Shown here piece by piece: positions 1 to 10,934 of a stretch of 64,000 nt of DNA. Under the pieces are notes generated by a model that ran no database searches, had not been told where the DNA came from, and saw only the letters and a list, made by a program, of their open reading frames with translations. Within the stretch, counting starts at the first letter, position 1. Every line of letters begins with the position of its first letter. The DNA comes from a virus. Taxonomy: Duplodnaviria > Caudoviricetes. The position numbers were made by a program, and so were the translations under genes. The stretch spans positions 32,001-96,000 of the IMG/VR virus record IMGVR_UViG_3300033121_000719. The stretch is one strand, 5' to 3'.

Positions 1-243
1 ACATACGTAGCGGATTTTGTAATAACATACCAAGACGGAACCGTTGAGGTAATAGATACTAAAGGCTTACCAGATAGCGTTTCAAAAATAAAAAAGAAAT
101 TATTCCACTATAAATATCCAGGCGTAAAATATACGTGGATAAGTTACAGTAAACAGGATGGTGGATGGGTTGAATATAAAAAATTATCTTTAGCGAGAAG
201 TAAGAGAAAAAGAGAAAAGAAAAAGGTTGATAAAAATGGCTGA
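1..243 (+). CDS. DUF1064-like PD-(D/E)XK nuclease, 5' truncated by the window edge
   Basis: Frame 1 reads TYVADFVITYQDGTVEVIDTKGLPD...KKKLFHYKYP to TGA at 241-243; not in the ORF track. Confidence 0.7.
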   Translation, partial: TYVADFVITYQDGTVEVIDTKGLPDSVSKIKKKLFHYKYPGVKYTWISYSKQDGGWVEYKKLSLARSKRKREKKKVDKNG

Positions 244-1240
244 TAAACACGTTTACAACAGAATATACACCAAAGAAGAATTTGATTTAGTCAATAAAAA
301 GAATATAGATATTATAGATGATTTTCTTGAGGAATATACTCAGAGAAAAATAAAAAAAACAACACTATATCAATATTATAATGATTTAAGAATAGTTGCT
401 CTTTTTGTTAGAAGATTTTGTGATAACAGATCGTTTTTAGAACTCAATAAAAGAGATTTTCGCAAAATGAGCATTTGGCTGAACGATGAGTGCAAAATGT
501 CGTCAGCAAGAACAAACAGAGTTATGTCAGCTTGTAGATCAATGTTGACATACATTGAAGATAATGATGACTATGAATATAATAATAACATAGCCAAAAA
601 GGTTAGGGGGCTGCCAAAAGAAGCAGTAAAGACAAATGAAGATGATTTCTTTATGTCTTTTGAACAGATAATGAAGGTCAGAGAAGAACTTTTAAAAAGA
701 GATGAGATTCAATTATGTCTCTTACATATGATATTCTTTGATAGTGGCGCAAGAAGAAACGAAGTTTTTCAAATTCAGAAATATAACCTTCTTGATAGCA
801 ATAAAACTAATTTAGTTATTGGTAAAAGAGGTAAAACTTTTCCATTAGTTTATATGGATGATACAAAAGAACTTATAAAATTGTGGCTTGAAAAAAGAGG
901 TGAGGACGATATAGATTCTTTGTGGGTAACTTATAATGGTTCTGTAAAAAAGAAGGCATCATATAATAATTTATATGAGTGGACTTTAAAAATACGAAAT
1001 ATTTTAAGTGAAATTGAAGGAAAAGAAATACGGATATTTCCACATAGTTATCGTCATAGTCGTTGTGAATCTCTTTTGCAAGGGACTGATACAAGAATTA
1101 TTGATAAAGAAACTGATCTTCCAAAAAAATTTCCTTTAGAACAGGTTCAAATATTTTTGCATCATGAAAATCCATCAACCACACAGGGATATGCAAAAGA
1201 TCATAGTGAAGATTTAATTAATGAAATGTTTAATATATAA
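236..1240 (+). CDS. Tyrosine recombinase (integrase family) upstream of the tape measure gene
   Basis: Catalytic motifs SGARRNE, FPHSYRH, LHH..PSTTQGY; ATG at 236. Confidence 0.85.
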   Translation: MADKHVYNRIYTKEEFDLVNKKNIDIIDDFLEEYTQRKIKKTTLYQYYNDLRIVALFVRRFCDNRSFLELNKRDFRKMSIWLNDECKMSSARTNRVMSACRSMLTYIEDNDDYEYNNNIAKKVRGLPKEAVKTNEDDFFMSFEQIMKVREELLKRDEIQLCLLHMIFFDSGARRNEVFQIQKYNLLDSNKTNLVIGKRGKTFPLVYMDDTKELIKLWLEKRGEDDIDSLWVTYNGSVKKKASYNNLYEWTLKIRNILSEIEGKEIRIFPHSYRHSRCESLLQGTDTRIIDKETDLPKKFPLEQVQIFLHHENPSTTQGYAKDHSEDLINEMFNI

Positions 1241-1271
1241 TGATAGAGAGATTCATTCTCTCTAAAGGAGG

Positions 1272-4200
1272 ATGAATATGGCTGTTGATATGTCAAGGCG
1301 TTATCACGTCAAGGTTCTTTTAGAAGGTGATGTAAAAGAATTAGAAGAAAGTTTAAAAAATAGACCACCCATAAAATATAAAGCTACACTTGGGGCTGAT
1401 ATAGATACAGATGCCGCTGACTACAAAATACAAATGTGGACTAATAGATTGACCAAAATGACTTCTGGCAAACTGTTGAATATTGGTCAATTTGATTTGA
1501 TGGATAGAAATAGGATAACGCAACAAGTAAATGAATTACAAAATTTAATTGGTGGGTTTGGAGTTAAGGGTGGCCCATCCGTAAAGGCAGTTGAACTTGC
1601 TTTTAGCAACTTAAGTGCGGCAATATCTGTTACTGATAAAAATATGAAGGCACATAAAAAGTCAAGTGATGATCTAACTAAATCACAAAAACAACAAGAA
1701 GCCGCCACGCAAACCTTAAATCATCAGGTTAATACCTATGAAGACCAAATAAAAAGAATGTCCGCAAGACAGCCAGCAATTTTCAATACTGAAGAAGTAA
1801 AAAAAGCTGTTGAAGAGTTTAGGCAACTTGCCACTGTGGCAAAAGCAACTGGAAACTATGAAAACTTAAAGAAAAATTTAGATAATTTATCAGAATCTTT
1901 TAATCACATAAAAACTAAGGCAACTGAAGCTGGCGGAGCTGTTTCTAAGCAAAACATGACTTGGGCTAACTTTGGCGAAATGATAAAAATAGCAATTAAA
2001 AAACTATCAGCGTGGGCTATTGCGACTGAAATTCTTTTTGAGGTAAACAAACAGTTTAAACAAACAGTAAAGTATGTGACTGATTTAAATACTGAAATGA
2101 CAAAGATTTTAATGGTTACTGATTTGACAAAAAATCAAGCAAAAGAATTAGTTGAGAGCTACAAAGAGTTAGGTCGTGAGCTTGGTGTTACTACATTAGA
2201 GGTGGCTAAAGGCGCAATTGAATGGCAAAGGCAGGGCAAAAGCATAAGCGAAACAAAAGAACTTTTGAGAGACAGTGTTATGCTTGCTTCAATTGCAAAT
2301 ATGGATCAAGCAAAATCAACTGAATATCTTACCTCAATTATCAATGGTTATCAGTTGAGTTTGGATGAAGTAAAACCTGTTTTAGACGGGTTGATTGCAC
2401 TTGACAATAATTATGCAACCAGCGTTGAGGAAATTGCTCAGGCTATGCAGAGAGTTTCAAATATTGCAAATCAAGCTGGAGTTCCTTTAAAAAACTTAGC
2501 GGCTCAAATTACAGTTATATCTTCTGTTACAAGAAAATCAGCAGAATCTATTGGTGAATCATTAAAAACCATTTACTCAAGAATGCAAAATGTGAAACTT
2601 GGGAAATCTCTTGATGAAGAAGGTCAACGAATTAGTGATGTTGAAACTGTTCTCAGTAGACTTGGTGTAAAACTAAGAGATGATGTTACTGGTGAATTTA
2701 GAAACATGAATGATGTAATGGAAGAAACCAGAAAAATCTATAAGAAACTTATGGATGAAGGACAGACCACAAGAGCAAACCAATTAGTTACGGTTTTTGC
2801 TGGTATCAGACAGGCTGAAAACTTAAAAGCATTTTGGGGTAATCCTGATATTTATGAAGAAGCTCTTAATGTTTATGATGAAAACCTTGGAATTATGGAA
2901 GAAAAATACAAGGCCAAAGCTGAAAGTATTGAAGCATATAATAATAGAATAAGTGCTGGCTGGGAAAATACTAAGGCCGCATTTTTTCCAGAAGAAAGCT
3001 ATCTTCGTTTATTGAAATTTACTGATGGATTGCTTGCATTTACTCAGGCTTGGGGAAAACTTAATACAGAAATAGATAACAGTAATATTTTATTGCGCTT
3101 ATTTTCAAATATAGGCGGCCCTATATTAAGAGGCATAGGAACTGGAGCTGTAACTGCATTTCAACAAACACCAACTGATGAAATGACTCAGTATGCAAAC
3201 AGTGAAATAGGTAAAAGAAAAGAAAGAATTGAGAGAATTAAGCGCGGAGAAGAAGACTTGCTTGGCGCAACATCTCAACAATATAGAGATGAACAAATAG
3301 CTCAGCTAGAAGCTGAAATTGAAGAAATAAAAAAGACCATTCCAACAGAATATCAATATAAAGATTATGAAGATACTAGAGAAATGGAACGCCTTAAGGC
3401 CGCAAGCGGAATTGGTGATTCTTCAAAATCAAAACCTGTTATGCCAGATGAATGGTTTGACTTAGTTTCTAAAATGGAAGCTTTGACTGAAGTTGATAAT
3501 AAACTGTTAAAATTAAAAGCAGATTATGAAGAAACTGGAAAAATGACTTTTGACCAGCTTACTCAGTTGCAAGATGTTCTTCCAGATTCATATCTTCAAT
3601 TTGTAAAAGCTGAAGGCGACCAACTTATTTTGAATACTGATGCATTAAAAGAATATATGATAACTAAAGCTCATAATACGGTTGTAACAGCGGACGATAA
3701 CAATGCCTCAGAAGAACAATTAAACATTTTGATAGCCTACGAAAACCAACTTAGATCAGGAGTTATAGGTGCTGTAGAAGAAGCCGCTAAACAACAAAAG
3801 GCATACGACCATATCCTTCAACTTACGATCAATATGCTTAAGCAGTCAAAAGAAGATGAAAAGAAGGCACTTCAAGAAGAACTCAATAGATATAAAAAGA
3901 TTATTGATAATAAAAAGAAATTGCTTGATCTCCAATTAAAAGAACTTCAATATCAAAATAAGATTGAAGATAAGAATAAATCAATTTCAAAAATACAAAA
4001 TGAGTTGCTTGAATTACAAGTTGATAATAGCGAAGAAGCGGTCGCAAAAAGACTTGAACTTGAAGAAGAACTTGAAAAGCAAAATGAAGAATTGTCAGAG
4101 ATGCAAAATGAGCATAGCATTGAGATGCAGAAAGAAGCTCTTGACGAAGAATTAAGAAACTTTAGTCAAGCAATTGATGATAAAATAAGTGAAATTGATA

Positions 4201-4844
4201 ATTATCTCAACCATGAGGGTGAAATTACTCAACAAGCTATAGCTATGATTGGCAATATGTCTTATAATTTATACCAACAGTTGATAGACTATAATTATAA
4301 ATACGGTGATGGTAAGAAAGAAACAATTGATCTTGAGTGGAAGCAAGTTAGAGCTTTACAGGCAGTAAAAAACGCCGCTTATGAAGCTGCCGCCGCAATT
4401 AGTTCAGTTGATATGTGGAGTTATGAAAACGCACCTTGGGATTGGACTGGTAAACCAGAGACTGATCCATACAGTTATGAAAACGCACCTTGGGATTGGA
4501 CTGGTGAACCAATTGGATACCATCATGATGGAATAAAATCTGGAAAAGTTGGTAGAACACCAAATTTAAGACAAGATGAAGTATTAGAGATTCTTACTAG
4601 AGATGAAACTGTTTTGAAACCATCAGATATTAATAACTTGGTAAGTAAAATTCCAAGTTTAGCTGGCGGTAGAATTGGTTCTGGTGTTTCTTTTGATAAC
4701 TTAATAAATCTAACAATTCATGGAAATGTAACTGATAAAAATATTGCTGATATAAAAACAATAGTGAATGAAGCTGTTGCTAAACTGAATAAATCTCTTA
4801 CTGATAGGGGATATTCACCAAACGCTACTGTTTATTCAATTTAA
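1272..4844 (+). CDS. Tail tape measure protein (TP901-family core)
   Basis: 1190 aa, helical/coiled-coil; SAESIGESLKTIYSRMQ and VETVLSRLGVKLRD motifs typical of TMP cores; AGGAGG RBS. Confidence 0.9.
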   Translation: MNMAVDMSRRYHVKVLLEGDVKELEESLKNRPPIKYKATLGADIDTDAADYKIQMWTNRLTKMTSGKLLNIGQFDLMDRNRITQQVNELQNLIGGFGVKGGPSVKAVELAFSNLSAAISVTDKNMKAHKKSSDDLTKSQKQQEAATQTLNHQVNTYEDQIKRMSARQPAIFNTEEVKKAVEEFRQLATVAKATGNYENLKKNLDNLSESFNHIKTKATEAGGAVSKQNMTWANFGEMIKIAIKKLSAWAIATEILFEVNKQFKQTVKYVTDLNTEMTKILMVTDLTKNQAKELVESYKELGRELGVTTLEVAKGAIEWQRQGKSISETKELLRDSVMLASIANMDQAKSTEYLTSIINGYQLSLDEVKPVLDGLIALDNNYATSVEEIAQAMQRVSNIANQAGVPLKNLAAQITVISSVTRKSAESIGESLKTIYSRMQNVKLGKSLDEEGQRISDVETVLSRLGVKLRDDVTGEFRNMNDVMEETRKIYKKLMDEGQTTRANQLVTVFAGIRQAENLKAFWGNPDIYEEALNVYDENLGIMEEKYKAKAESIEAYNNRISAGWENTKAAFFPEESYLRLLKFTDGLLAFTQAWGKLNTEIDNSNILLRLFSNIGGPILRGIGTGAVTAFQQTPTDEMTQYANSEIGKRKERIERIKRGEEDLLGATSQQYRDEQIAQLEAEIEEIKKTIPTEYQYKDYEDTREMERLKAASGIGDSSKSKPVMPDEWFDLVSKMEALTEVDNKLLKLKADYEETGKMTFDQLTQLQDVLPDSYLQFVKAEGDQLILNTDALKEYMITKAHNTVVTADDNNASEEQLNILIAYENQLRSGVIGAVEEAAKQQKAYDHILQLTINMLKQSKEDEKKALQEELNRYKKIIDNKKKLLDLQLKELQYQNKIEDKNKSISKIQNELLELQVDNSEEAVAKRLELEEELEKQNEELSEMQNEHSIEMQKEALDEELRNFSQAIDDKISEIDNYLNHEGEITQQAIAMIGNMSYNLYQQLIDYNYKYGDGKKETIDLEWKQVRALQAVKNAAYEAAAAISSVDMWSYENAPWDWTGKPETDPYSYENAPWDWTGEPIGYHHDGIKSGKVGRTPNLRQDEVLEILTRDETVLKPSDINNLVSKIPSLAGGRIGSGVSFDNLINLTIHGNVTDKNIADIKTIVNEAVAKLNKSLTDRGYSPNATVYSI
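4419..4505 (+). repeat. Perfect 33-bp direct repeat within the TMP gene (SYENAPWDWTG x2)
   Basis: agttatgaaaacgcaccttgggattggactggt at 4419-4451 and 4473-4505. Confidence 0.95.
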
Positions 4845-4853
4845 CGTTAATGA

Positions 4854-4885
4854 TCCTTAGTAGGACTCTAAAGTCCTACTAAGGA
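4854..4885. other. 14-bp perfect stem-loop between TMP and Dit
   Basis: tccttagtaggact-ctaa-agtcctactaagga; no U-tract. Confidence 0.7.
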
Positions 4886-4908
4886 ATTCATAGAAAGGAG
4901 ATGTAAAT

Positions 4909-5709
4909 TTGGCCGCTAATTTTAAAGGATTAGAGTTTATTTTTGACAACAAAAGTTCAGACTTTTATGGATTGAAGTTATATAATTCAGATACTGGAAG
5001 TTCTGAAGGTGATGCTGGTTCAAAAGTTGAAATTCTTGAAAAAACAATTTTGAGAAAACCAAAAACAATTCTTTTTGGTACGAGTCAAAATACTCAACTT
5101 GAGTTTGACCTAATTATAGGAAGCACATCAGAAGTTGATGCTCAAACTAGAAGTGCGATTTCAAGATGGTTACTTGGTAGAAGTTCATACCTTCCACTAA
5201 GCATTGTCCAAGAGGATATGTTGTCAACAATTTATTATGTCATTTTTACAGAAATGAAACCAGTATTTTATGGGAATTTAAATTATGCTTTTGTTGCTCA
5301 TGCCAAATGTAATGCTCCTTGGGCTTATATGAGTCCAAAAACAAGCACATATAACTATAGTGGAAGTAGCATAGTTTCAACAACTATAAATTACAATAAT
5401 CTTTCAGATAATAATGATTACACTGATACAATAGTTTCTTTTACAATGAATGGTATTGGAAACTATTTTACAATTACGAATGTAACTGATAATAATAGAG
5501 TTTTTTCATTTACTAATATTTTACCATACGAGACAATAACTGTAAACGGGAATACTCTTGAGGTATATTCTTCAACTGGATTAAAAAGAGTCGATTCTTT
5601 CAATAAAGGTTTTGTCAGATTTGTGCCTGGAATAAATGTCTTGCAAATACAAGGTGGAATTAATCAATTAAGTTTTACCACTGAATTTGCAGTAAAAGCT
5701 GGAGGTTAA
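4909..5709 (+). CDS. Distal tail protein (Dit)-like
   Basis: Directly after TMP; C-terminal FVRFVPGINVLQI motif; beta-rich. Confidence 0.75.
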   Translation: MAANFKGLEFIFDNKSSDFYGLKLYNSDTGSSEGDAGSKVEILEKTILRKPKTILFGTSQNTQLEFDLIIGSTSEVDAQTRSAISRWLLGRSSYLPLSIVQEDMLSTIYYVIFTEMKPVFYGNLNYAFVAHAKCNAPWAYMSPKTSTYNYSGSSIVSTTINYNNLSDNNDYTDTIVSFTMNGIGNYFTITNVTDNNRVFSFTNILPYETITVNGNTLEVYSSTGLKRVDSFNKGFVRFVPGINVLQIQGGINQLSFTTEFAVKAGG

Positions 5710-5711
5710 CG

Positions 5712-7628
5712 ATGAATCAAGGTTTTGATTATTTTAATAGATACCAGATTCCAACCTTTACTCTTTGCAATCCTGATAAAACTCAATTATATATTTTGGG
5801 TGATATTTATGATAGAAAGCTAACTTTAAAATACAACGCAATATCAGAATTGTCGTTTACTGCAAAATCTGGTACTGCATATTATGATCTTTTGAATTAT
5901 AGAAGATTAATACATATTGAAGAATTTGGATACTTTATGATTACTGGAATTGAAAATGAATCTGATGGTATCCAAGACATCAAGAAAATAACAGCCCAAT
6001 CAATAGATGTTGAATTATATTACAGAAAATTGTCAAACTTTAAGGGAACTTATAAGTTTTATGACTATTTTAATCCATCTACAACTTTGATTGGGACATT
6101 ACTTGCATATTTACCAAATTGGAGTGTTGGAGTTATTGATGGTTCTCTTATACCATTGTATAGAACTTTTAATGAAACTGATACAACTATCTATGCTTTT
6201 CTAATCAACAAAGTTGAACAAGCGTATAAATGTGTTTTTGTTTTTGATTATGAAAACTATACAATTTCAGCGTATTCTCCAAGTACCGCTACGAAAAATA
6301 CTGATATTATATTGTCTCATAAGAACTTGATTGAAGATATAAAAATCAAAACATCAACAGATCAGTTGGTTACAGCGTTAAATGTGTTTGGAAAAGGCGA
6401 TCTTGATATTAGAACAGTCAATCCTCTTGGCACTGCAACTTTATATGATTTTACTTTTTATAAAAATGCTGAGTGGATGAGTGGTTCATTAATTAGTAAA
6501 ATAACCGCATGGGAACAACTGGTTGACACTTATCAACCAACATATGCAACAAAACTTACTGAATTAAAAAACTTATATGAAGAATTGACAATATTAAACT
6601 CTGAATATGCTGATTTAAAAGCTGACTATAACTCTCTTGATGGCGTAAGAAAAGCTAGAATAGAACAGGGAAATTCAGACCTGTCTGGAATTACAGCCCA
6701 ATGTGAAGCCAAACAAGCAGAGATGGATTCAAAACAAGGACAGATAGATAATAAAAACACACAAATAACAGCCAAAAAAGCTGAACTTGTAGCGATAAAT
6801 GACCTACTTAAATTTGAAAATAATTTTACCGCTTCTGAATTGATTGAATTAAACAACTTTATTATAGTTTCTACATATCAAAACGAAAATTTTGTGCAGA
6901 CTGACACTATGACAAATGCTGAAATACAAGATATGGCTCAACAATTATATGACCAAGCCGCTGATGTTTTGAGTAGAATGGCTCAAGCTAGATATACATT
7001 TGAACTAAATGCGGTAAATTTTATTTTTGCCATAGAGTATGCAAGATCAACGATACAACTTGAACTTGGAAGTGTAATAAATCTTGAAGTTAGTGATGAT
7101 GTTTGGGCTTATCCAATCCTTCTTGAAATATCATTGAACTATGAAGACCCAAATGATTTTGAATTAACATTTGGAAATAGATTGAGACTAGATAATGGCC
7201 CAATGACGTTTGCTGATTTGCTTGGTTCAACAGTAAATAATAACCTTAAACTAGCTACTAATGATGTAAAATGGAATAGCTTTGATGATAACTATAAAGA
7301 TGGAGTTTCAGCATTATTGACTGAGGCTTTTGATGCTTCAAAAAATGCTATTATTTCAGCGACTAACCAAGAAATTAGAATAAATCAGAATGGTTTATTG
7401 GGAAGAAAATATATTGGCGTAGTTGCTGGAAGTCCAATTTACGATCCTGAACAATTGTGGATGATTAATAATCAAATTGTTTTCACAGACGATGCTTTCA
7501 ATAGTGTGAAATCAGCTATTGGTAAAATATCAACTTCAAGTGGATCGTTCTACGGCGTAATAGGTGAAAAAATTTATGGGAAAAATATAGTGAATTGGAA
7601 CTGTTATGATAATAACGAAATTTGTTGA
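5712..7628 (+). CDS. Tail spike/Tal-like protein, N-terminal part (prophage tail endopeptidase-like fold plus coiled coil)
   Basis: Follows Dit; ends shortly after EQLWMINNQIVFTDD...SAIGK...YGVIGE; appears to continue in the 8844 ORF. Confidence 0.75.
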   Translation: MNQGFDYFNRYQIPTFTLCNPDKTQLYILGDIYDRKLTLKYNAISELSFTAKSGTAYYDLLNYRRLIHIEEFGYFMITGIENESDGIQDIKKITAQSIDVELYYRKLSNFKGTYKFYDYFNPSTTLIGTLLAYLPNWSVGVIDGSLIPLYRTFNETDTTIYAFLINKVEQAYKCVFVFDYENYTISAYSPSTATKNTDIILSHKNLIEDIKIKTSTDQLVTALNVFGKGDLDIRTVNPLGTATLYDFTFYKNAEWMSGSLISKITAWEQLVDTYQPTYATKLTELKNLYEELTILNSEYADLKADYNSLDGVRKARIEQGNSDLSGITAQCEAKQAEMDSKQGQIDNKNTQITAKKAELVAINDLLKFENNFTASELIELNNFIIVSTYQNENFVQTDTMTNAEIQDMAQQLYDQAADVLSRMAQARYTFELNAVNFIFAIEYARSTIQLELGSVINLEVSDDVWAYPILLEISLNYEDPNDFELTFGNRLRLDNGPMTFADLLGSTVNNNLKLATNDVKWNSFDDNYKDGVSALLTEAFDASKNAIISATNQEIRINQNGLLGRKYIGVVAGSPIYDPEQLWMINNQIVFTDDAFNSVKSAIGKISTSSGSFYGVIGEKIYGKNIVNWNCYDNNEIC

Positions 7629-8844
7629 TGTAAAAATAGTTAGAACGAATCATAATCACTATAAAAATCTTGGTTATGACGCTAAATATAAAAGCGTCAT
7701 AACCATTCCAATAGAACATTTAACGTTGGGCAGTCACGTTGAGATTGAAGTTAAGTGCGATTATTGCGGTCTTATTATAAAAAAAATGTACAGGCAAATT
7801 ATAAAAGAAAGAAAAGATTCTGTTATAAAAAAAGATTGTTGTAAAAATTGCGCCAATAAAAAAAGAACAGAATCTAATCTTTTATTATATTATGTGGAGA
7901 ATACATTTCAAAGAGACGACATAAAACAAAAGATAAAAACAATATTGATAGAAAGATACGGATACGACAGCATCTCAAAAACAGAAGAAAATAAAAAGAA
8001 AATATCAGAAATATGGAAAAACAAACCTAAAAAAGAAAAAGATTTAATTGTATGTAAAATGATGGAAACACAAATAAAAAGATATGGAATGTGGTATACA
8101 AAGACTGAAGACTATAAAGAAAAAAAAAGAAAAACTTGTATAGAAAAATATGGCACAGATGATTTTTCAAGATCAGTAATTGTTAGAGACAAGTATAAAA
8201 ATACTATCAAAGAAAGATATGATAATGTTGATAATTATTTTGCAACTAAACAGTTTAAATCATACATAAAACAATATTGGATGCTTCTATATGGAGTAGA
8301 TCATTATTCAAAAACTGATAATTTTCATAAAAAAATTTGTTCATATTGGGATAATGTCACTGAAGATATACTAAAATATAAAAATGAAAAAACATCAAAA
8401 ACCGTAAAAGAAAGATATGGGGTTGATTATGTTTTTCAATTAGAATCTGTTAGAGAATCAATAAAGAACACTTCAAGAAATGGTTCTAAGCCTCAATATA
8501 AACTATATTCTATATTGAAAGAAATATTTCCAGAATATATGATTTCTTACAATTTTATTGATGCGCCATATACACTAGATATTTTATTATTTTTTGAAAA
8601 CATCAAGATAGACATTGAGTATGATTGTTCTTATTGGCACACACCAGAGTTGGACAAAAAAAGGGACAATATATTAATTGAAAGAGGGTATAAAATCTTA
8701 AGAATAAAATCAGGGAGAAATATTCCTGAACACGAAGATTTGAAATCTTCAATAAATATATTATTAAAAACTGAAGAAAAATACCTAGAATTATTTTTAA
8801 TAGATTGGAATGAAACTATATATAAAAAAAAGAGAGGTAAATGA
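7606..8844 (+). mobile_element. Putative free-standing homing endonuclease (Zn ribbon, KxxxxERYG repeats, DUF559/Vsr-like nuclease domain)
   Basis: CDYC..CCKNC; repeated ERYG/EKYG; C-terminal LDIL..IDIEYDCSYWH..DKKRD..RGYKILRI; Lys-rich and A-rich compared with flanking tail genes. Confidence 0.75.
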
Positions 8845-10934
8845 TGAGTAATTGTTTAATTTTACAAACTAAAACAAAAGTATTTTTTGGATCAGATACA
8901 GCTCTCACAACAAAAATAAAAGATGAATATATTAGAGTGAGTAAAAATCAAGAAAAAATATATACATTTAAAAATGGGATTATGTTTTGTTCTGGAAATA
9001 ATTTTTATGTTGATAAAATAGTTTCATATTTTTCTAATGTTAAATGGTTGGATCAAAATAATATATCACTATTTATAAAAGAATTAAATCCTAAAAAAAA
9101 TAAGGAAGTCTTTAATATAGAGATTATTGTAGCGATAATTGAAAAAAATAGTGTATCTGTTTTTCAGATATCTGAATACAATAACTATGACGTTGTAAAA
9201 CTATCAGTTAATGATAACGAAACTAAAGTGTTTTCTGCTGGAATTGAAACCAAAAAATGCGTTGATTTTGCTGTGCATGAATTAAATTTAAAAAACAATG
9301 TATTTGACGTGTATAGAAATGTTTTTAATAAAATAAAATGTGAAAAAATAGGCGGAAACTTACAAGTATACGAAGTATCAAATTCAATAATAAAGCATAT
9401 TGACGAGCCAATTAAAGATGATATTATTCCAAGGATTTCTGTGTATTCAGTAATTGGCGAGGCACTAATTGGCAAAATTTTAGCTGGTAATCAACTTACT
9501 ATTACAAATGATTCCAACACGTTCTATGTTGATGGTTCTGGTGTTTCGTTAACTACATCAAATCTTCAAGGAACTGGAAGAGTTACAATAAATGGACTGA
9601 ATGGAATTAGACTTCAAAAAATAGTTCCTGCTTCTGGAAGTTCTTCTGGAAGTGTAATAAATACATTTTGGGTTGATAGTCAAGGAAACTTACAAATAAC
9701 TGGTAATTTAGTTGCCGCAACTGGAACTTTCAACGGAAGTTTATCAACTGAATTGGGAAGTATTGGTGGGTGGATTATCACTAAAGATGGATTGATGGAT
9801 AATTTAGGTAACTATATCTATAGTGACGGTAGAGTTCATCTTGGTATGCTTGATATAAATGGGTCTACTGCAACTTTCAATGGGTATGTATATGCCGATA
9901 ACTTGGTTGGTCTTATTACTGAAGCTAAGTTGGCTGATGGTAGTGTTACAAATGCTAAAATTAAAAATTTGAGCGCAGACAAGATAAATGCTGGAACGCT
10001 TAGAGCTATCAACATTGAAGGATGCACAATAAGATGGGGTTCAAATAATTCTTATGCTATAATGCGTGATGTTGGAACTGGAGCACTAGAAATATCTTCA
10101 AACAATGTTATACAAATGGTAAATTATAATGGACAAAATGCCAGCGGACTTATTTTAAAGTCAGATGATGCAATTTTTGGCGGAAACTCAAAGACAACTA
10201 TTGGAACTTTATCTTCAAGCACAATAAATCTCAACGGTTCTCTTATGACAAGAGGACAATATGCCCAAACGCAAACCGTATATGTTGGTAATAAAAGAAT
10301 GGTGTTTGTAAATGGATTATTTATGGGTGCTACTGGATGGAATGGCACAACATATCCTCCAACTGAAAGTGGAACTCCAATAACTACAGAACCTAACTTT
10401 ACTTGGACTGAGGGTGGACTAGAGTTTATTGCTGTTGATATAAGTAATGATTGGCAAACGCCTGGCGATTTTTCTAGGAGATTGGATTTATCTTATTCTA
10501 AAATACCAGCGGATTGCTATTATGTTGGTTTAGCTATTTTTAATGCTTCTTCGTATACAACCTTATGGCCTAATCATTTTCAATATGTTCCAAATGGAAA
10601 TTCTTATGATGTTCACACAAATTATAACAATGTAACGCTTGGATTTTGGATTAATAATGATTCTTGGACAGGATTTACAGGATTTTCAATAAGTGGAGAT
10701 GGTAGTGGCTATGAAAGTCCTGCTGCTGCTGTTTATGATTTTTGTAGCAAGAAATCACAAAGTAGTCCTCTTAATATTGGTGATATTTACCTTTCTGGAA
10801 CTATGGAACGTTTTTATGGTGGAGTATATAATTATTTTGAATGGAATAATGATACTATAGATTATAGTGATGGAAGCTGGAATATAGATAATAAAAAAAA
10901 ATGGATGATTTGTGTTAAAAATCCAAACCCATAA
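8844..10934 (+). CDS. Fusion: N-terminal Ntn-hydrolase (proteasome beta-like) domain + C-terminal part of the tail spike protein
   Basis: M-S1-NCLIL..GSD17..EKIY..CSG..SAG..KIGGNLQVYEV, then YSVIGEALIGKILAGNQLTITN and beta-helix tail repeats; RBS GAGGT favours the second ATG at 8844. Confidence 0.7.
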   Translation: MSNCLILQTKTKVFFGSDTALTTKIKDEYIRVSKNQEKIYTFKNGIMFCSGNNFYVDKIVSYFSNVKWLDQNNISLFIKELNPKKNKEVFNIEIIVAIIEKNSVSVFQISEYNNYDVVKLSVNDNETKVFSAGIETKKCVDFAVHELNLKNNVFDVYRNVFNKIKCEKIGGNLQVYEVSNSIIKHIDEPIKDDIIPRISVYSVIGEALIGKILAGNQLTITNDSNTFYVDGSGVSLTTSNLQGTGRVTINGLNGIRLQKIVPASGSSSGSVINTFWVDSQGNLQITGNLVAATGTFNGSLSTELGSIGGWIITKDGLMDNLGNYIYSDGRVHLGMLDINGSTATFNGYVYADNLVGLITEAKLADGSVTNAKIKNLSADKINAGTLRAINIEGCTIRWGSNNSYAIMRDVGTGALEISSNNVIQMVNYNGQNASGLILKSDDAIFGGNSKTTIGTLSSSTINLNGSLMTRGQYAQTQTVYVGNKRMVFVNGLFMGATGWNGTTYPPTESGTPITTEPNFTWTEGGLEFIAVDISNDWQTPGDFSRRLDLSYSKIPADCYYVGLAIFNASSYTTLWPNHFQYVPNGNSYDVHTNYNNVTLGFWINNDSWTGFTGFSISGDGSGYESPAAAVYDFCSKKSQSSPLNIGDIYLSGTMERFYGGVYNYFEWNNDTIDYSDGSWNIDNKKKWMICVKNPNP

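What the first reader, a model, noticed from the sequence alone, without database searches (positions are those of the whole stretch)
7551..9476. Tail gene split by an endonuclease plus an Ntn-hydrolase domain, with a duplicated junction peptide: possible intein-free protein rejoining
Seen: the tail protein stops shortly after Y-G-V-I-G-E-K-I-Y-G-K (7551-7583). Tail-like sequence resumes at Y-S-V-I-G-E-A-L-I-G-K (9444-9476). Between them lie a putative homing endonuclease and a ~200-aa domain fused to the C-terminal half. The ORFs overlap, so there is no room for an intron core, and there are no intein motifs. The fused domain has proteasome-beta hallmarks: Ser1 after Met removal, Asp17 (GSD), EKIY, CSG, SAG and GGNLQVY. 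Known: Ntn hydrolases use residue 1 as nucleophile, and the archaeal proteasome-beta homologue Connectase (Ser1) ligates proteins by transpeptidation at a shared recognition sequence. Fractured phage genes with split inteins flanking an endonuclease are also known. Inference: this is a selfish element that repairs its host gene post-translationally. The Ntn domain either swaps the two copies of the VIGE...GK motif to join the halves, or cleaves itself off so the halves can assemble.
Basis: partly seen in the sequence, partly recalled or inferred. Interest (0 to 1): 0.88.

Follow-up and report, generated by a model that had tools for sequence, protein, structure and literature searches.

The report
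Proteasome-like enzyme cassette splits tail gene
A phage tail-tip gene is cut in two by a mobile cassette carrying a homing endonuclease and a proteasome-type enzyme domain, and that domain probably repairs the split protein after translation, which would be a repair route that does not use an intein.

Summary
The Tal-type tail-tip gene is split at 7551-9476. The N-half (5712-7628) ends with YGVIGEKIYGK plus a 14-residue tail. The C-half resumes with YSVIGEALIGK. Between them lie a DUF7487/Vsr-like homing endonuclease (7606-8844) and a ~195-residue domain fused to the N-terminus of the C-half.

An alignment-based AlphaFold2 model of the domain has pLDDT 94.7. It is a proteasome-beta fold (Z 19.9), and the Ser after the initiator Met aligns with Thr1. 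Ser1, Asp17, Lys37 and Gly50 are conserved or invariant.

The family has at least 241 clusters at 50% identity. In all 150 listed hits the domain sits at the protein's N-terminus, and it is nearly always followed by the same Tal motif. Of 17 loci examined, 13 have the same endonuclease directly upstream and one keeps only its remnants. Uninterrupted homologues carry a single motif.

So this is a recurrent selfish cassette. The fold, the catalytic residues and the anatomy are shown. Connectase-like ligation of the halves is my preferred mechanism (about 0.4) but is untested. Protease-only processing is the main rival.

The domain is probably the uncharacterised 'FC4' proteasome homologue of Fuchs et al. 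2021. This scan noted the same cassette earlier on other DNA.

The parts
5712..7628 (+). N-terminal half of the Tal-type tail-tip protein (638 aa).
   Evidence: Pfam Prophage_tail and YOMG_N; phrog_6211 positions 10-632 of 1168. tblastn matches the N-terminal ~630 residues of longer uninterrupted tail proteins in 104 phage records.
7551..7583 (+). Junction motif copy 1 (YGVIGEKIYGK), at the end of the N-half.
   Evidence: It aligns to the single motif of uninterrupted homologues. In 11 split loci the N-half keeps G-[VI]-[IC]-x-[ED]-[KR]-[I] and then diverges.
7584..7628 (+). Variable 14-residue tail of the N-half. It overlaps the endonuclease translation-initiation region.
   Evidence: Across loci the tail is 5-17 residues and is not conserved. 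In several related loci its codons spell the endonuclease RBS and ATG; in the window they cover the endonuclease start at 7606. It could be a leaving group or an inert appendage (inference).
7606..8844 (+). Free-standing homing endonuclease (412 aa): N-terminal zinc-ribbon region, DUF7487 repeats and a C-terminal Vsr/DUF559-type PD-(D/E)xK nuclease.
   Evidence: Pfam DUF7487 at 5.4e-21 and DUF559 weak; phrog_12131 and phrog_3339 'homing endonuclease'. The E-Y-D...H...D..R...L...G..ILRI signature is visible. Homologues sit directly upstream of the Ntn gene in 12 other loci.
8832..8837 (+). Shine-Dalgarno sequence (GAGAGG) for the Ntn/C-half ORF.
   Evidence: It lies 6 nt before ATG 8844, which favours a start reading M-S-N-C-L. 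Related loci all have GGAGG before M-S.
8844..9428 (+). Proteasome-beta-like Ntn-hydrolase domain (~195 aa). The nucleophile Ser codon is at 8847-8849.
   Evidence: AlphaFold2 with 97 sequences gives pLDDT 94.7 and pTM 0.89. The Foldseek top matches are all 20S beta subunits, E ~3e-9. VIA-align gives Z 19.9, rmsd 2.6 over 175 residues, and model Ser2 aligns to Thr1 of mature chains.
9444..9476 (+). Junction motif copy 2 (YSVIGEALIGK), at the start of the C-half proper.
   Evidence: A strict pattern finds the same motif after the domain in 100 of 137 family members of 240 aa or more, and most of the remainder show it by eye. The surrounding 66 nt (9449-9514) are the only DNA-level match of the 6.5-kb region in the phage collection.
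9444..10934 (+). C-terminal half of Tal (fibre or receptor-binding part).
   Evidence: phrog_19445 'tail tip protein Tal' at residues 355-470. tblastn matches tail-tip proteins.

Best explanation
SHOWN. A selfish cassette made of a free-standing Vsr-type homing endonuclease gene and a proteasome-beta-like Ntn domain is inserted in the most conserved motif of a Tal tail-tip gene. The gene is therefore expressed as two polypeptides. One is an N-half that ends with a partial copy of the motif plus a junk tail. The other is a separately translated Ntn domain followed by the full motif and the C-half. The domain begins M-S, so removal of the Met would expose Ser1 as a free N-terminal nucleophile. 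The Asp17 / Lys37 / Gly50 catalytic set is conserved.

INFERRED. The domain acts once, after translation, on the duplicated motif to restore a working tail tip. The route I think most likely is Connectase-like transpeptidation:
1. Ser1 attacks the N-half at its motif copy and releases the junk tail.
2. The acyl group passes to an amine. This is either the enzyme's own Ser1 alpha-amine or the new N-terminus of the C-half.
3. If the Ser1 amine accepts it, the result is one chain of N-half, Ntn domain and C-half.
4. If the C-half N-terminus accepts it, after the same enzyme has cut at motif copy 2, the result is a seamless Tal plus a free Ntn domain.

The endonuclease would spread the cassette by cutting the conserved motif DNA of uninterrupted alleles.
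For: Fold. AlphaFold2 gives pLDDT 94.7. The listed Foldseek matches are all 20S proteasome beta subunits. VIA-align Z scores are 19.9 to beta subunits, 17.4 to Anbu, 14.9 to HslV and 10.8 to Connectase. Model Ser2 aligns to Thr1 of mature chains.

Catalytic residues (numbering includes Met). Among 97 members, K38, G51 and G170 are invariant, and S2, D18, R31, G133 and G171 are at least 90% conserved. The only PDB sequence hit is a beta subunit, and it aligns GaD with GAD, K with K and csG with rSG.

A free N-terminus looks obligatory. There are 241 cluster representatives with E <= 1e-3. In all 150 listed, the domain starts at or within a few residues of residue 1 and never has more than about 25 residues upstream. 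128 of the 150 begin MS, and most others have an internal M-S or I-S that suggests a miscalled start.

Substrate logic. The domain is almost always followed by the Tal motif. The N-half keeps 6-11 motif residues and then a non-conserved tail. In several related loci that tail is encoded by the endonuclease RBS and start, and in the window it covers the endonuclease start codon.

Cassette. The same endonuclease family lies directly upstream in 13 of 17 loci. L023 keeps only endonuclease remnants in a 124-nt gap while the split and the Ntn domain persist. The Ntn ORF has its own strong RBS in every locus examined. Uninterrupted homologues have one motif.

Precedent. Connectase forms an amide between its Thr1 or Ser1 amine and the substrate, and recombines proteins that share a recognition sequence (PMC7980362).
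Against: - No experiment or proteomic data bears on ligation.
- The domain is structurally nearer to hydrolytic proteasome beta, Anbu and HslV than to Connectase, and it keeps helices H1/H2 that Connectase lacks (PMC8665760).
- Having the full catalytic set fits hydrolysis as well as transfer.
- The one-step version does not explain why the motif is duplicated. The seamless version needs an extra self-cleavage.
- Genes split by free-standing endonucleases can work as non-covalent pieces. The same endonuclease family splits the tape-measure gene of Lactococcus phage AM1 with no Ntn domain.
- Distance-matrix tests did not show the endonuclease and the Ntn domain co-evolving more tightly than either does with Tal.
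- The lower GC of the cassette is not mirrored in GC3.
Confidence: 0.4

Rival explanations
1. Protease only. The Ntn domain cuts itself off the C-half, trims the junk tail of the N-half, or does both. The two halves then assemble non-covalently in the tail tip, for example through the duplicated strand. No peptide bond is formed.
For: - The closest structural relatives are hydrolases, with Z 15-20 to proteasome beta, Anbu and HslV.
- The full hydrolytic residue set is conserved.
- Endonuclease-split genes that work as non-covalent pieces are an established phenomenon (from my own knowledge, not checked here). This same endonuclease family splits the AM1 tape-measure gene without any helper domain.
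- A His-Leu/Ser pair just before motif copy 2 is enriched (His 44%, Leu 61%) and could mark a cleavage site.
Against: - It does not explain why an enzyme needs to accompany the endonuclease at all if the pieces can simply assemble.
- It does not explain why the enzyme must be fused in cis, one copy per C-half.
- A near-invariant Ser in place of Thr is unusual for hydrolytic proteasome homologues and is shared with some Connectases (PMC7980362).
Confidence: 0.3
2. Native two-gene tail tip. The Ntn domain is an ordinary N-terminal adaptor or a virion-borne enzyme domain of a fibre protein, for example one acting on the host envelope. The endonuclease is an unrelated intergenic hitch-hiker.
For: - Tal proteins often carry enzymatic domains.
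- The endonuclease family occurs in many other contexts without the Ntn domain.
- Three Ntn-bearing genes lack any endonuclease nearby (L010, L012, L020).
- The endonuclease and Ntn distance matrices are not significantly correlated.
Against: - In phage tail loci the Ntn domain was never seen without the endonuclease or its remnant: 13 intact plus 1 remnant among 14 loci where a split Tal gene or the endonuclease adjoins the Ntn gene.
- The domain always sits exactly at the conserved motif, where uninterrupted homologues are continuous.
- The N-half carries a redundant partial copy of the motif.
- An adaptor role would not need an invariant residue-1 Ser and Lys.
- The domain is never internal or C-terminal in the 150 listed hits.
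Confidence: 0.17
3. Repair at the nucleic-acid level. The cassette is removed by RNA splicing, translational bypass or DNA excision, so that a single Tal chain is translated.
Against: - No Rfam intron family matches 7000-10000 even at E <= 10.
- The ORFs overlap or abut with no non-coding core.
- The Ntn domain is in frame with the C-half, has its own RBS and is under strong purifying conservation.
- The two motif copies share only 19 of 33 bases, too few for recombinational excision.
- The contig of the main holder bridges the cassette with no joints.
Confidence: 0.03

Closest known systems
Connectase (archaeal monomeric proteasome homologue; protein ligase; PMC7980362)
   Same: Both have a proteasome-type Ntn fold with a Ser1 or Thr1 nucleophile. 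In both, the substrate logic involves two partners that share one recognition sequence. The Connectase amide intermediate on the enzyme's own N-terminal amine would, in this case, directly join the N-half to the Ntn/C-half chain.
   Different: Structural similarity is only moderate (Z 10.8, against 17-20 for proteasome beta and Anbu). This domain keeps helices H1/H2, has no KDPGA motif, is fused in cis to one substrate, is encoded by phages, and travels with a homing endonuclease. Ligase activity has not been tested.
Fractured genes: split inteins flanking a free-standing homing endonuclease (Dassa et al. 2009, from my own knowledge)
   Same: An essential gene is split by an endonuclease ORF, and a protein-level self-processing module is attached to the gene halves. 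The overall selfish-element logic is the same.
   Different: There is no Hint fold and there are no intein blocks. The module is a single Ntn domain on the C-half only. The N-half carries only a partial motif copy plus a junk tail. The extein junction is duplicated, whereas an intein leaves it seamless.
Genes in pieces made by free-standing endonucleases (for example the split nrdA of phage Aeh1, from my own knowledge; the split tape-measure gene of Lactococcus phage AM1)
   Same: A free-standing endonuclease sits between two halves of a functional gene. In AM1 it is the same endonuclease family.
   Different: Those cases have no accompanying enzyme domain, and the halves assemble non-covalently.
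'FC4' proteasome homologue cluster of Fuchs, Alva and Lupas 2021 (PMC8665760)
   Same: It is described as a Firmicute proteasome homologue whose C-terminal domains resemble phage tail proteins. One family member here is a Paenibacillus protein. It is probably the same family.
   Different: I could not verify the identity, because the representative accession could not be fetched. The paper gives no model, no function, no endonuclease or split-gene context and no duplicated motif.
20S proteasome beta, HslV, Anbu and BPH (MEROPS T1)
   Same: They share the fold and the Thr1/Ser1, Asp17, Lys33 and Gly47 equivalents.
   Different: This domain is below the Pfam PF00227 threshold and uses Ser where those use Thr. 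It is fused to a tail protein. Ring assembly is unknown and unlikely given a presumably trimeric fibre context (inference).

Membership tests
Proteasome-beta-type Ntn hydrolases (MEROPS T1 / Pfam PF00227 clan) | Alpha-beta-beta-alpha Ntn sandwich with the proteasome strand and helix order. | tested here: met
   The model has pLDDT 94.7. The listed Foldseek matches are all 20S beta subunits. VIA-align gives Z 19.9, rmsd 2.6, 175 residues aligned.
Proteasome-beta-type Ntn hydrolases (MEROPS T1 / Pfam PF00227 clan) | Nucleophile Thr or Ser at the mature N-terminus. | tested here: met
   Ser follows the initiator Met in 128 of 150 members and is at least 90% conserved. Model Ser2 superposes on Thr1 of mature chains. 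Met removal before Ser is inferred from the known specificity of Met aminopeptidase.
Proteasome-beta-type Ntn hydrolases (MEROPS T1 / Pfam PF00227 clan) | Equivalents of Asp17, Lys33 and Gly47. | tested here: met
   With Met counted, D18 is at least 90% conserved, and K38 and G51 are invariant. They align to the GAD, K and SG of a beta subunit.
Proteasome-beta-type Ntn hydrolases (MEROPS T1 / Pfam PF00227 clan) | Sequence match to the Pfam Proteasome model above its cut-off. | tested here: not met
   There is no PF00227 hit at E <= 0.1. This is a distant homologue detectable only by structure.
Connectase | Proteasome-like core lacking helices H1/H2, with Connectase-specific insertions. | tested here: not met
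   The model has helices at 53-64 and 71-81 in the H1/H2 position. Z to Connectase is only 10.8. The description of the Connectase core comes from PMC8665760.
Connectase | KDPGA-type recognition sequence in the substrate. | tested here: not met
   The shared sequence here is h-[VI]-[AG]-[ED]-x-h-x-G-[KR]. There is no KDPGA.
Connectase | Transpeptidase (ligase) activity through an N-terminal amide intermediate. | not testable with these tools
   This needs biochemistry.
Inteins / split inteins | Hint fold with blocks A, B, F and G, a Cys/Ser at the N-junction, and His-Asn plus Cys/Ser/Thr at the C-junction. | tested here: not met
   No intein or Hint Pfam hits in any of the three ORFs. The domain fold is Ntn. 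The junction residues differ.
Group I / II intron with endonuclease ORF | Structured intron RNA core flanking the ORF. | tested here: not met
   No intron family at E <= 10 in 7000-10000 apart from a chance-level 23-bit partial hit. The ORFs overlap and leave no non-coding core.
Free-standing PD-(D/E)xK (Vsr/DUF559-type) homing endonucleases with DUF7487 | DUF7487 repeats plus a C-terminal Vsr-like nuclease motif, sited between conserved host sequences. | tested here: met
   DUF7487 at 5.4e-21, above its cut-off. DUF559 is at 0.012 in the window, and MTES_1575 hits are on record without a weak or faint mark for the homologues in L005 and L007. PHROG 'homing endonuclease' families match. Cleavage activity was not tested.

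The most novel reading that the evidence does not exclude
This is a new class of protein-splicing element. A homing endonuclease travels with a single-turnover proteasome-fold Ser1 transpeptidase. That enzyme recognises the duplicated Tal motif on both gene halves, swaps their C-terminal parts, and releases itself. The result is a seamless full-length tail-tip protein. Functionally this would be an intein analogue built on Ntn chemistry. Orphan copies in bacterial mobile elements may use the same chemistry to graft a foreign receptor-binding half onto a helper phage's tail tip.
Probability: 0.3. Interest if true: 0.95.

Novelty: new variant of a known kind. Interest (0 to 1): 0.85.

Why it matters
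Selfish endonuclease elements are known to stay harmless in three ways: RNA splicing (introns), Hint-domain protein splicing (inteins), or sitting between genes or leaving non-covalent pieces. A cassette that carries a proteasome-type N-terminal nucleophile enzyme would add another solution.

If the enzyme ligates, this would be the second natural proteasome-fold ligase after Connectase. It would also be the first case of Ntn chemistry used for protein rejoining in viruses.

It would offer a new family of sequence-specific, self-contained protein ligases for biotechnology. The family is diverse, with at least 241 clusters at 50% identity.

It also marks the conserved Tal motif as a hot spot where receptor-binding modules may be exchanged, which bears on how phage host range evolves.

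Even the protease-only reading gives a first functional context to an uncharacterised proteasome homologue family (probably 'FC4').

Tried and rejected
- Single-sequence AlphaFold2 of the domain failed (pLDDT 34) and was replaced by the alignment-based model.
- phmmer of the domain against PDB sequences gave only chance hits.
- The word-indexed homologue search found only the protein itself.
- The search for related loci with the 97-row alignment had no usable conserved stretch. With 7 rows it found 2 viral loci and 1 genomic locus.
- A profile search of 401 genomes of the phylum of a Paenibacillus host found 1 new copy. The domain is rare in the bacterial genomes searched.
- Complex prediction of the Ntn domain with the last 60 residues of the N-half returned no verdict (score 0.00, controls not run). 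This is no evidence either way.
- Sequencing runs: no RNA holder is listed and only contigs are available. The main holder bridges the cassette with no joints, and a wastewater run holds scattered identical pieces. These data cannot address splicing or cassette-free alleles.
- Composition: the endonuclease and the Ntn domain have lower GC than both Tal halves in 7 of 7 loci, but GC3 does not follow. This may be amino-acid bias and not foreign origin.
- Mantel tests of module distance matrices (n = 10 loci) were inconclusive about the endonuclease and Ntn domain moving as a unit.
- The Perkons genome paper has no virion proteomics and no comment on these ORFs.
- Literature searches for an endonuclease plus Ntn or proteasome-like tail element returned nothing.
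- No solved structure is detectable by sequence for the Tal halves.
- ESM Atlas gave only sub-threshold leads to small Bacillota proteasome-like clusters.
- I could not confirm that FC4 is this family, because the accession could not be retrieved.

Full report
**Setting.** The window lies in a complete 132.8-kb viral contig with terminal repeats. Its GC content is about 31%. The region holds a tail module: tape measure (1272-4844), Dit-like protein (4909-5709), then three tightly packed ORFs.

**Observation.** ORF 5712-7628 (638 aa) is the N-terminal part of a Tal-type tail-tip protein. It matches Pfam Prophage_tail and YOMG_N, and positions 10-632 of the 1168-position phrog_6211. It ends with Y-G-V-I-G-E-K-I-Y-G-K (7551-7583) followed by 14 more residues.

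ORF 7606-8844 (412 aa) starts inside that tail. ORF 8841/8844-10934 starts on the endonuclease stop codon (ATGATG with TGA). After about 200 residues it reads Y-S-V-I-G-E-A-L-I-G-K (9444-9476) and continues as Tal-like sequence (phrog_19445).

The two peptides share 8 of 11 residues but only 19 of 33 bases. In the uninterrupted homologue on MT835481, Tal-N residues 1-630 and C-half residues 195-323 map to record stretches that overlap by 72 nt, around one motif. Bacillus phage Kirov likewise has one continuous 886-aa gene.

**The middle ORF.** It matches Pfam DUF7487 (5.4e-21) and weakly DUF559 and MTES_1575, which are Vsr-type PD-(D/E)xK nucleases. It also matches two PHROG families annotated as homing endonuclease. 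Relatives occur in many phages in other contexts. In Lactococcus phage AM1 a relative splits the tape-measure gene.

**The fused domain.** It has no Pfam or PHROG hit, and a single-sequence fold failed. A full HMMER scan of 1.84 billion representatives found 241 clusters at E <= 1e-3 and 154 at E <= 1e-10. In every one of the 150 listed hits the match begins at or within a few residues of the protein's first residue. 128 of the 150 begin M-S, and most exceptions contain an internal M-S or I-S that suggests a miscalled start.

A 97-sequence alignment gave an AlphaFold2 model with pLDDT 94.7 and pTM 0.89. Its strand and helix order is that of proteasome subunits.
- Foldseek returned only 20S beta subunits among its listed matches (E ~3e-9, probability 1.0).
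- The Foldseek-independent search gave Z 19.9 (rmsd 2.6, 175 residues) to beta subunits, 17.4 to Anbu, 14.9 to HslV, 13.8 to BPH and 10.8 to Connectase.
- In that search, model residue 2 (Ser) aligned to residue 1 of mature chains.
- With Met counted, K38, G51 and G170 are invariant, and S2, D18, A20, R31, F48, G133 and G171 are at least 90% conserved.
- A profile search of PDB sequences hits only a beta subunit. The hit is not significant alone, but it aligns these columns to Asp17, Lys33 and Gly47.

The GAGAGG Shine-Dalgarno at 8832-8837 favours ATG 8844, which gives M-S-N-C-L. Met aminopeptidase removes Met before Ser (established knowledge), so Ser1 would be the free N-terminal nucleophile.

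**Recurrence.** Psychrobacillus phage Perkons is the only one of 50,697 phage records with the domain. It has the same layout:
- a Tal-N that ends G-V-I-G-E-K-M-Y-C-K plus 10 residues;
- a homologous endonuclease;
- a protein that starts M-S-S-L-L-V-L-Q, with the domain followed by L-I-V-G-E-R-I-Y-G-K.

I examined 17 loci carrying the domain.
- 13 have an intact endonuclease of this family directly upstream, usually with overlapping stop and start codons. Where the contig reaches far enough, a Tal-N lies before it.
- L023 has no endonuclease. Its 124-nt gap still encodes remnants of the endonuclease N-terminus (M-L-F-V-D-Y) and C-terminus (L-D-D-W), while the split and the Ntn domain persist. 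This is the expected decay stage of a homing endonuclease.
- Three copies are outside this context. Two are orphans in bacterial mobile-element-like regions (L010, L020). One is a stand-alone 196-aa domain after an uninterrupted Tal part (L012).

**Anatomy of the junctions.** N-halves keep G-[VI]-[IC]-x-[ED]-[KR]-[I] and then diverge into tails of 5-17 residues. In several related loci the tail codons are the endonuclease RBS and start codon, and in the window the tail covers the endonuclease start at 7606. The tails therefore look like a by-product.

C-halves restart with a strongly conserved h-[VI]-[AG]-[ED]-x-h-x-G-[KR]-h-h-A-G-x-x-L-x-I, often preceded by His-Leu or His-Ser. A strict pattern finds this in 100 of 137 members of 240 aa or more, and most of the rest show variants.

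Each Ntn ORF has its own GGAGG-type RBS. The DNA around copy 2 (9449-9514) is the only part of the 6.5-kb region with a nucleotide-level match in the phage collection, at about 81% to Lactococcus 949-group tail genes. That level of conservation fits a homing target.

**What it is.** It is a recurrent cassette (endonuclease plus Ntn domain) that fractures the Tal gene at its most conserved motif. No intron family is detected and there is no non-coding core. No intein signal is present.

**How it most likely works (inference).** Four features point to a single-turnover self-processing enzyme that acts on the motif and not to a structural adaptor:
- an invariant N-terminal Ser with the full proteasome catalytic set;
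- obligatory placement at the extreme N-terminus;
- fusion in cis, one copy per C-half;
- a dispensable tail on the N-half.

Connectase shows that this fold can ligate. Its Thr1 or Ser1 hydroxyl attacks the substrate, and the acyl group moves to the enzyme's own alpha-amine as a stable amide. Partners that share the recognition sequence are then exchanged (PMC7980362).

Applied here, the first half-reaction alone would join the N-half to the Ntn/C-half chain. A full exchange at the two motif copies would give a seamless Tal and a free domain, and it would explain the duplication. I put covalent rejoining at about 0.4.

Protease-only processing followed by non-covalent assembly is the main rival, at about 0.3. 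It is favoured by the closer structural kinship to hydrolases and by the AM1 precedent of a split tail gene with no helper domain. A native two-gene tip with a hitch-hiking endonuclease gets about 0.17, and nucleic-acid-level repair about 0.03.

**Tests that did not decide.** These were the complex prediction (no verdict), the sequencing runs (contigs only), GC against GC3 and the Mantel tests.

**Known or new.** Fuchs, Alva and Lupas (PMC8665760) list a Firmicute cluster 'FC4' whose C-terminal domains resemble phage tail proteins. They give no model and no function. This is probably the same family, but I could not verify it.

Full-text searches found no description of an endonuclease plus Ntn cassette. 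The Perkons paper does not discuss these ORFs.

This scan noted the same kind of cassette earlier on other DNA (e1-5780325, e1-5780326). Those are unchecked AI notes that agree with what I tested here.

I file it as a new variant of the endonuclease-fractured-gene theme. If ligation is shown, it would be categorically new.

Noticed in passing
L022 (Lactococcus phage AM1, KY554768) 1-7392: An endonuclease of the same family (AM1_153, annotated as 'zinc-ribbon-containing protein' here and as 'homing endonuclease' in the RefSeq copy NC_049854) sits between a large tape-measure ORF and an 81-aa ORF that is also annotated as tape measure. The tape-measure gene looks fractured by this endonuclease family, with no Ntn domain present.
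   Followed up: partly
L026 2887-3935: A second selfish insertion lies about 10 codons upstream of the cassette junction. Tal-N stops at 2886. A LAGLIDADG_2 ORF follows (3085-3684). A short frame at 3834-3935 then encodes W-K-H-A-I-T-S-E-G-I-V-T-N-K-V, which is the missing end of Tal-N. This looks like an intron with its own endonuclease, but Rfam found no intron family. The conserved motif region seems to be a hot spot for mobile elements.
   Followed up: partly
L010 6001-9216 (Paenibacillus tianmuensis, WP_174551242.1) and L020 9280-10629: Orphan genes encoding an Ntn domain plus Tal C-half sit in bacterial genomes with no Tal-N, endonuclease or tail module nearby. Their neighbours include AbiH, an AEP-type primase, HNH and HTH genes. 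They could be prophage debris. They could also belong to satellite-like elements that graft their own receptor-binding half onto a helper phage's tail tip.
   Followed up: partly
L023 621-745: The 124-nt gap between Tal-N and the Ntn gene keeps recognisable remnants of the endonuclease N- and C-termini. This is an internal deletion of the endonuclease with the split architecture retained.
   Followed up: yes
L012 1-2037: A stand-alone 196-aa Ntn domain gene lies 9 nt after an ORF that carries a single uninterrupted Tal motif and about 450 further residues. The contig ends 40 nt later, so the context is unknown.
   Followed up: no
window 6789-7568: In the main holder run, low-depth variant contigs (10-13% different) cover 6789-7104, 7149-7394 and 7396-7568. 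The last ends inside motif copy 1. A related strain is present, and its junction state is unknown.
   Followed up: no
window 9449-9514: These 66 nt encoding the motif and the residues after it are about 81% identical to tail genes of Lactococcus 949-group phages. The rest of the 6.5-kb region has no DNA-level match in the phage collection.
   Followed up: partly
L008 14637-15498: The related 131-kb gut phage that carries the same cassette also has an NrdD gene with intein and LAGLIDADG hits. Genomes with this cassette appear to hold several kinds of selfish elements.
   Followed up: no
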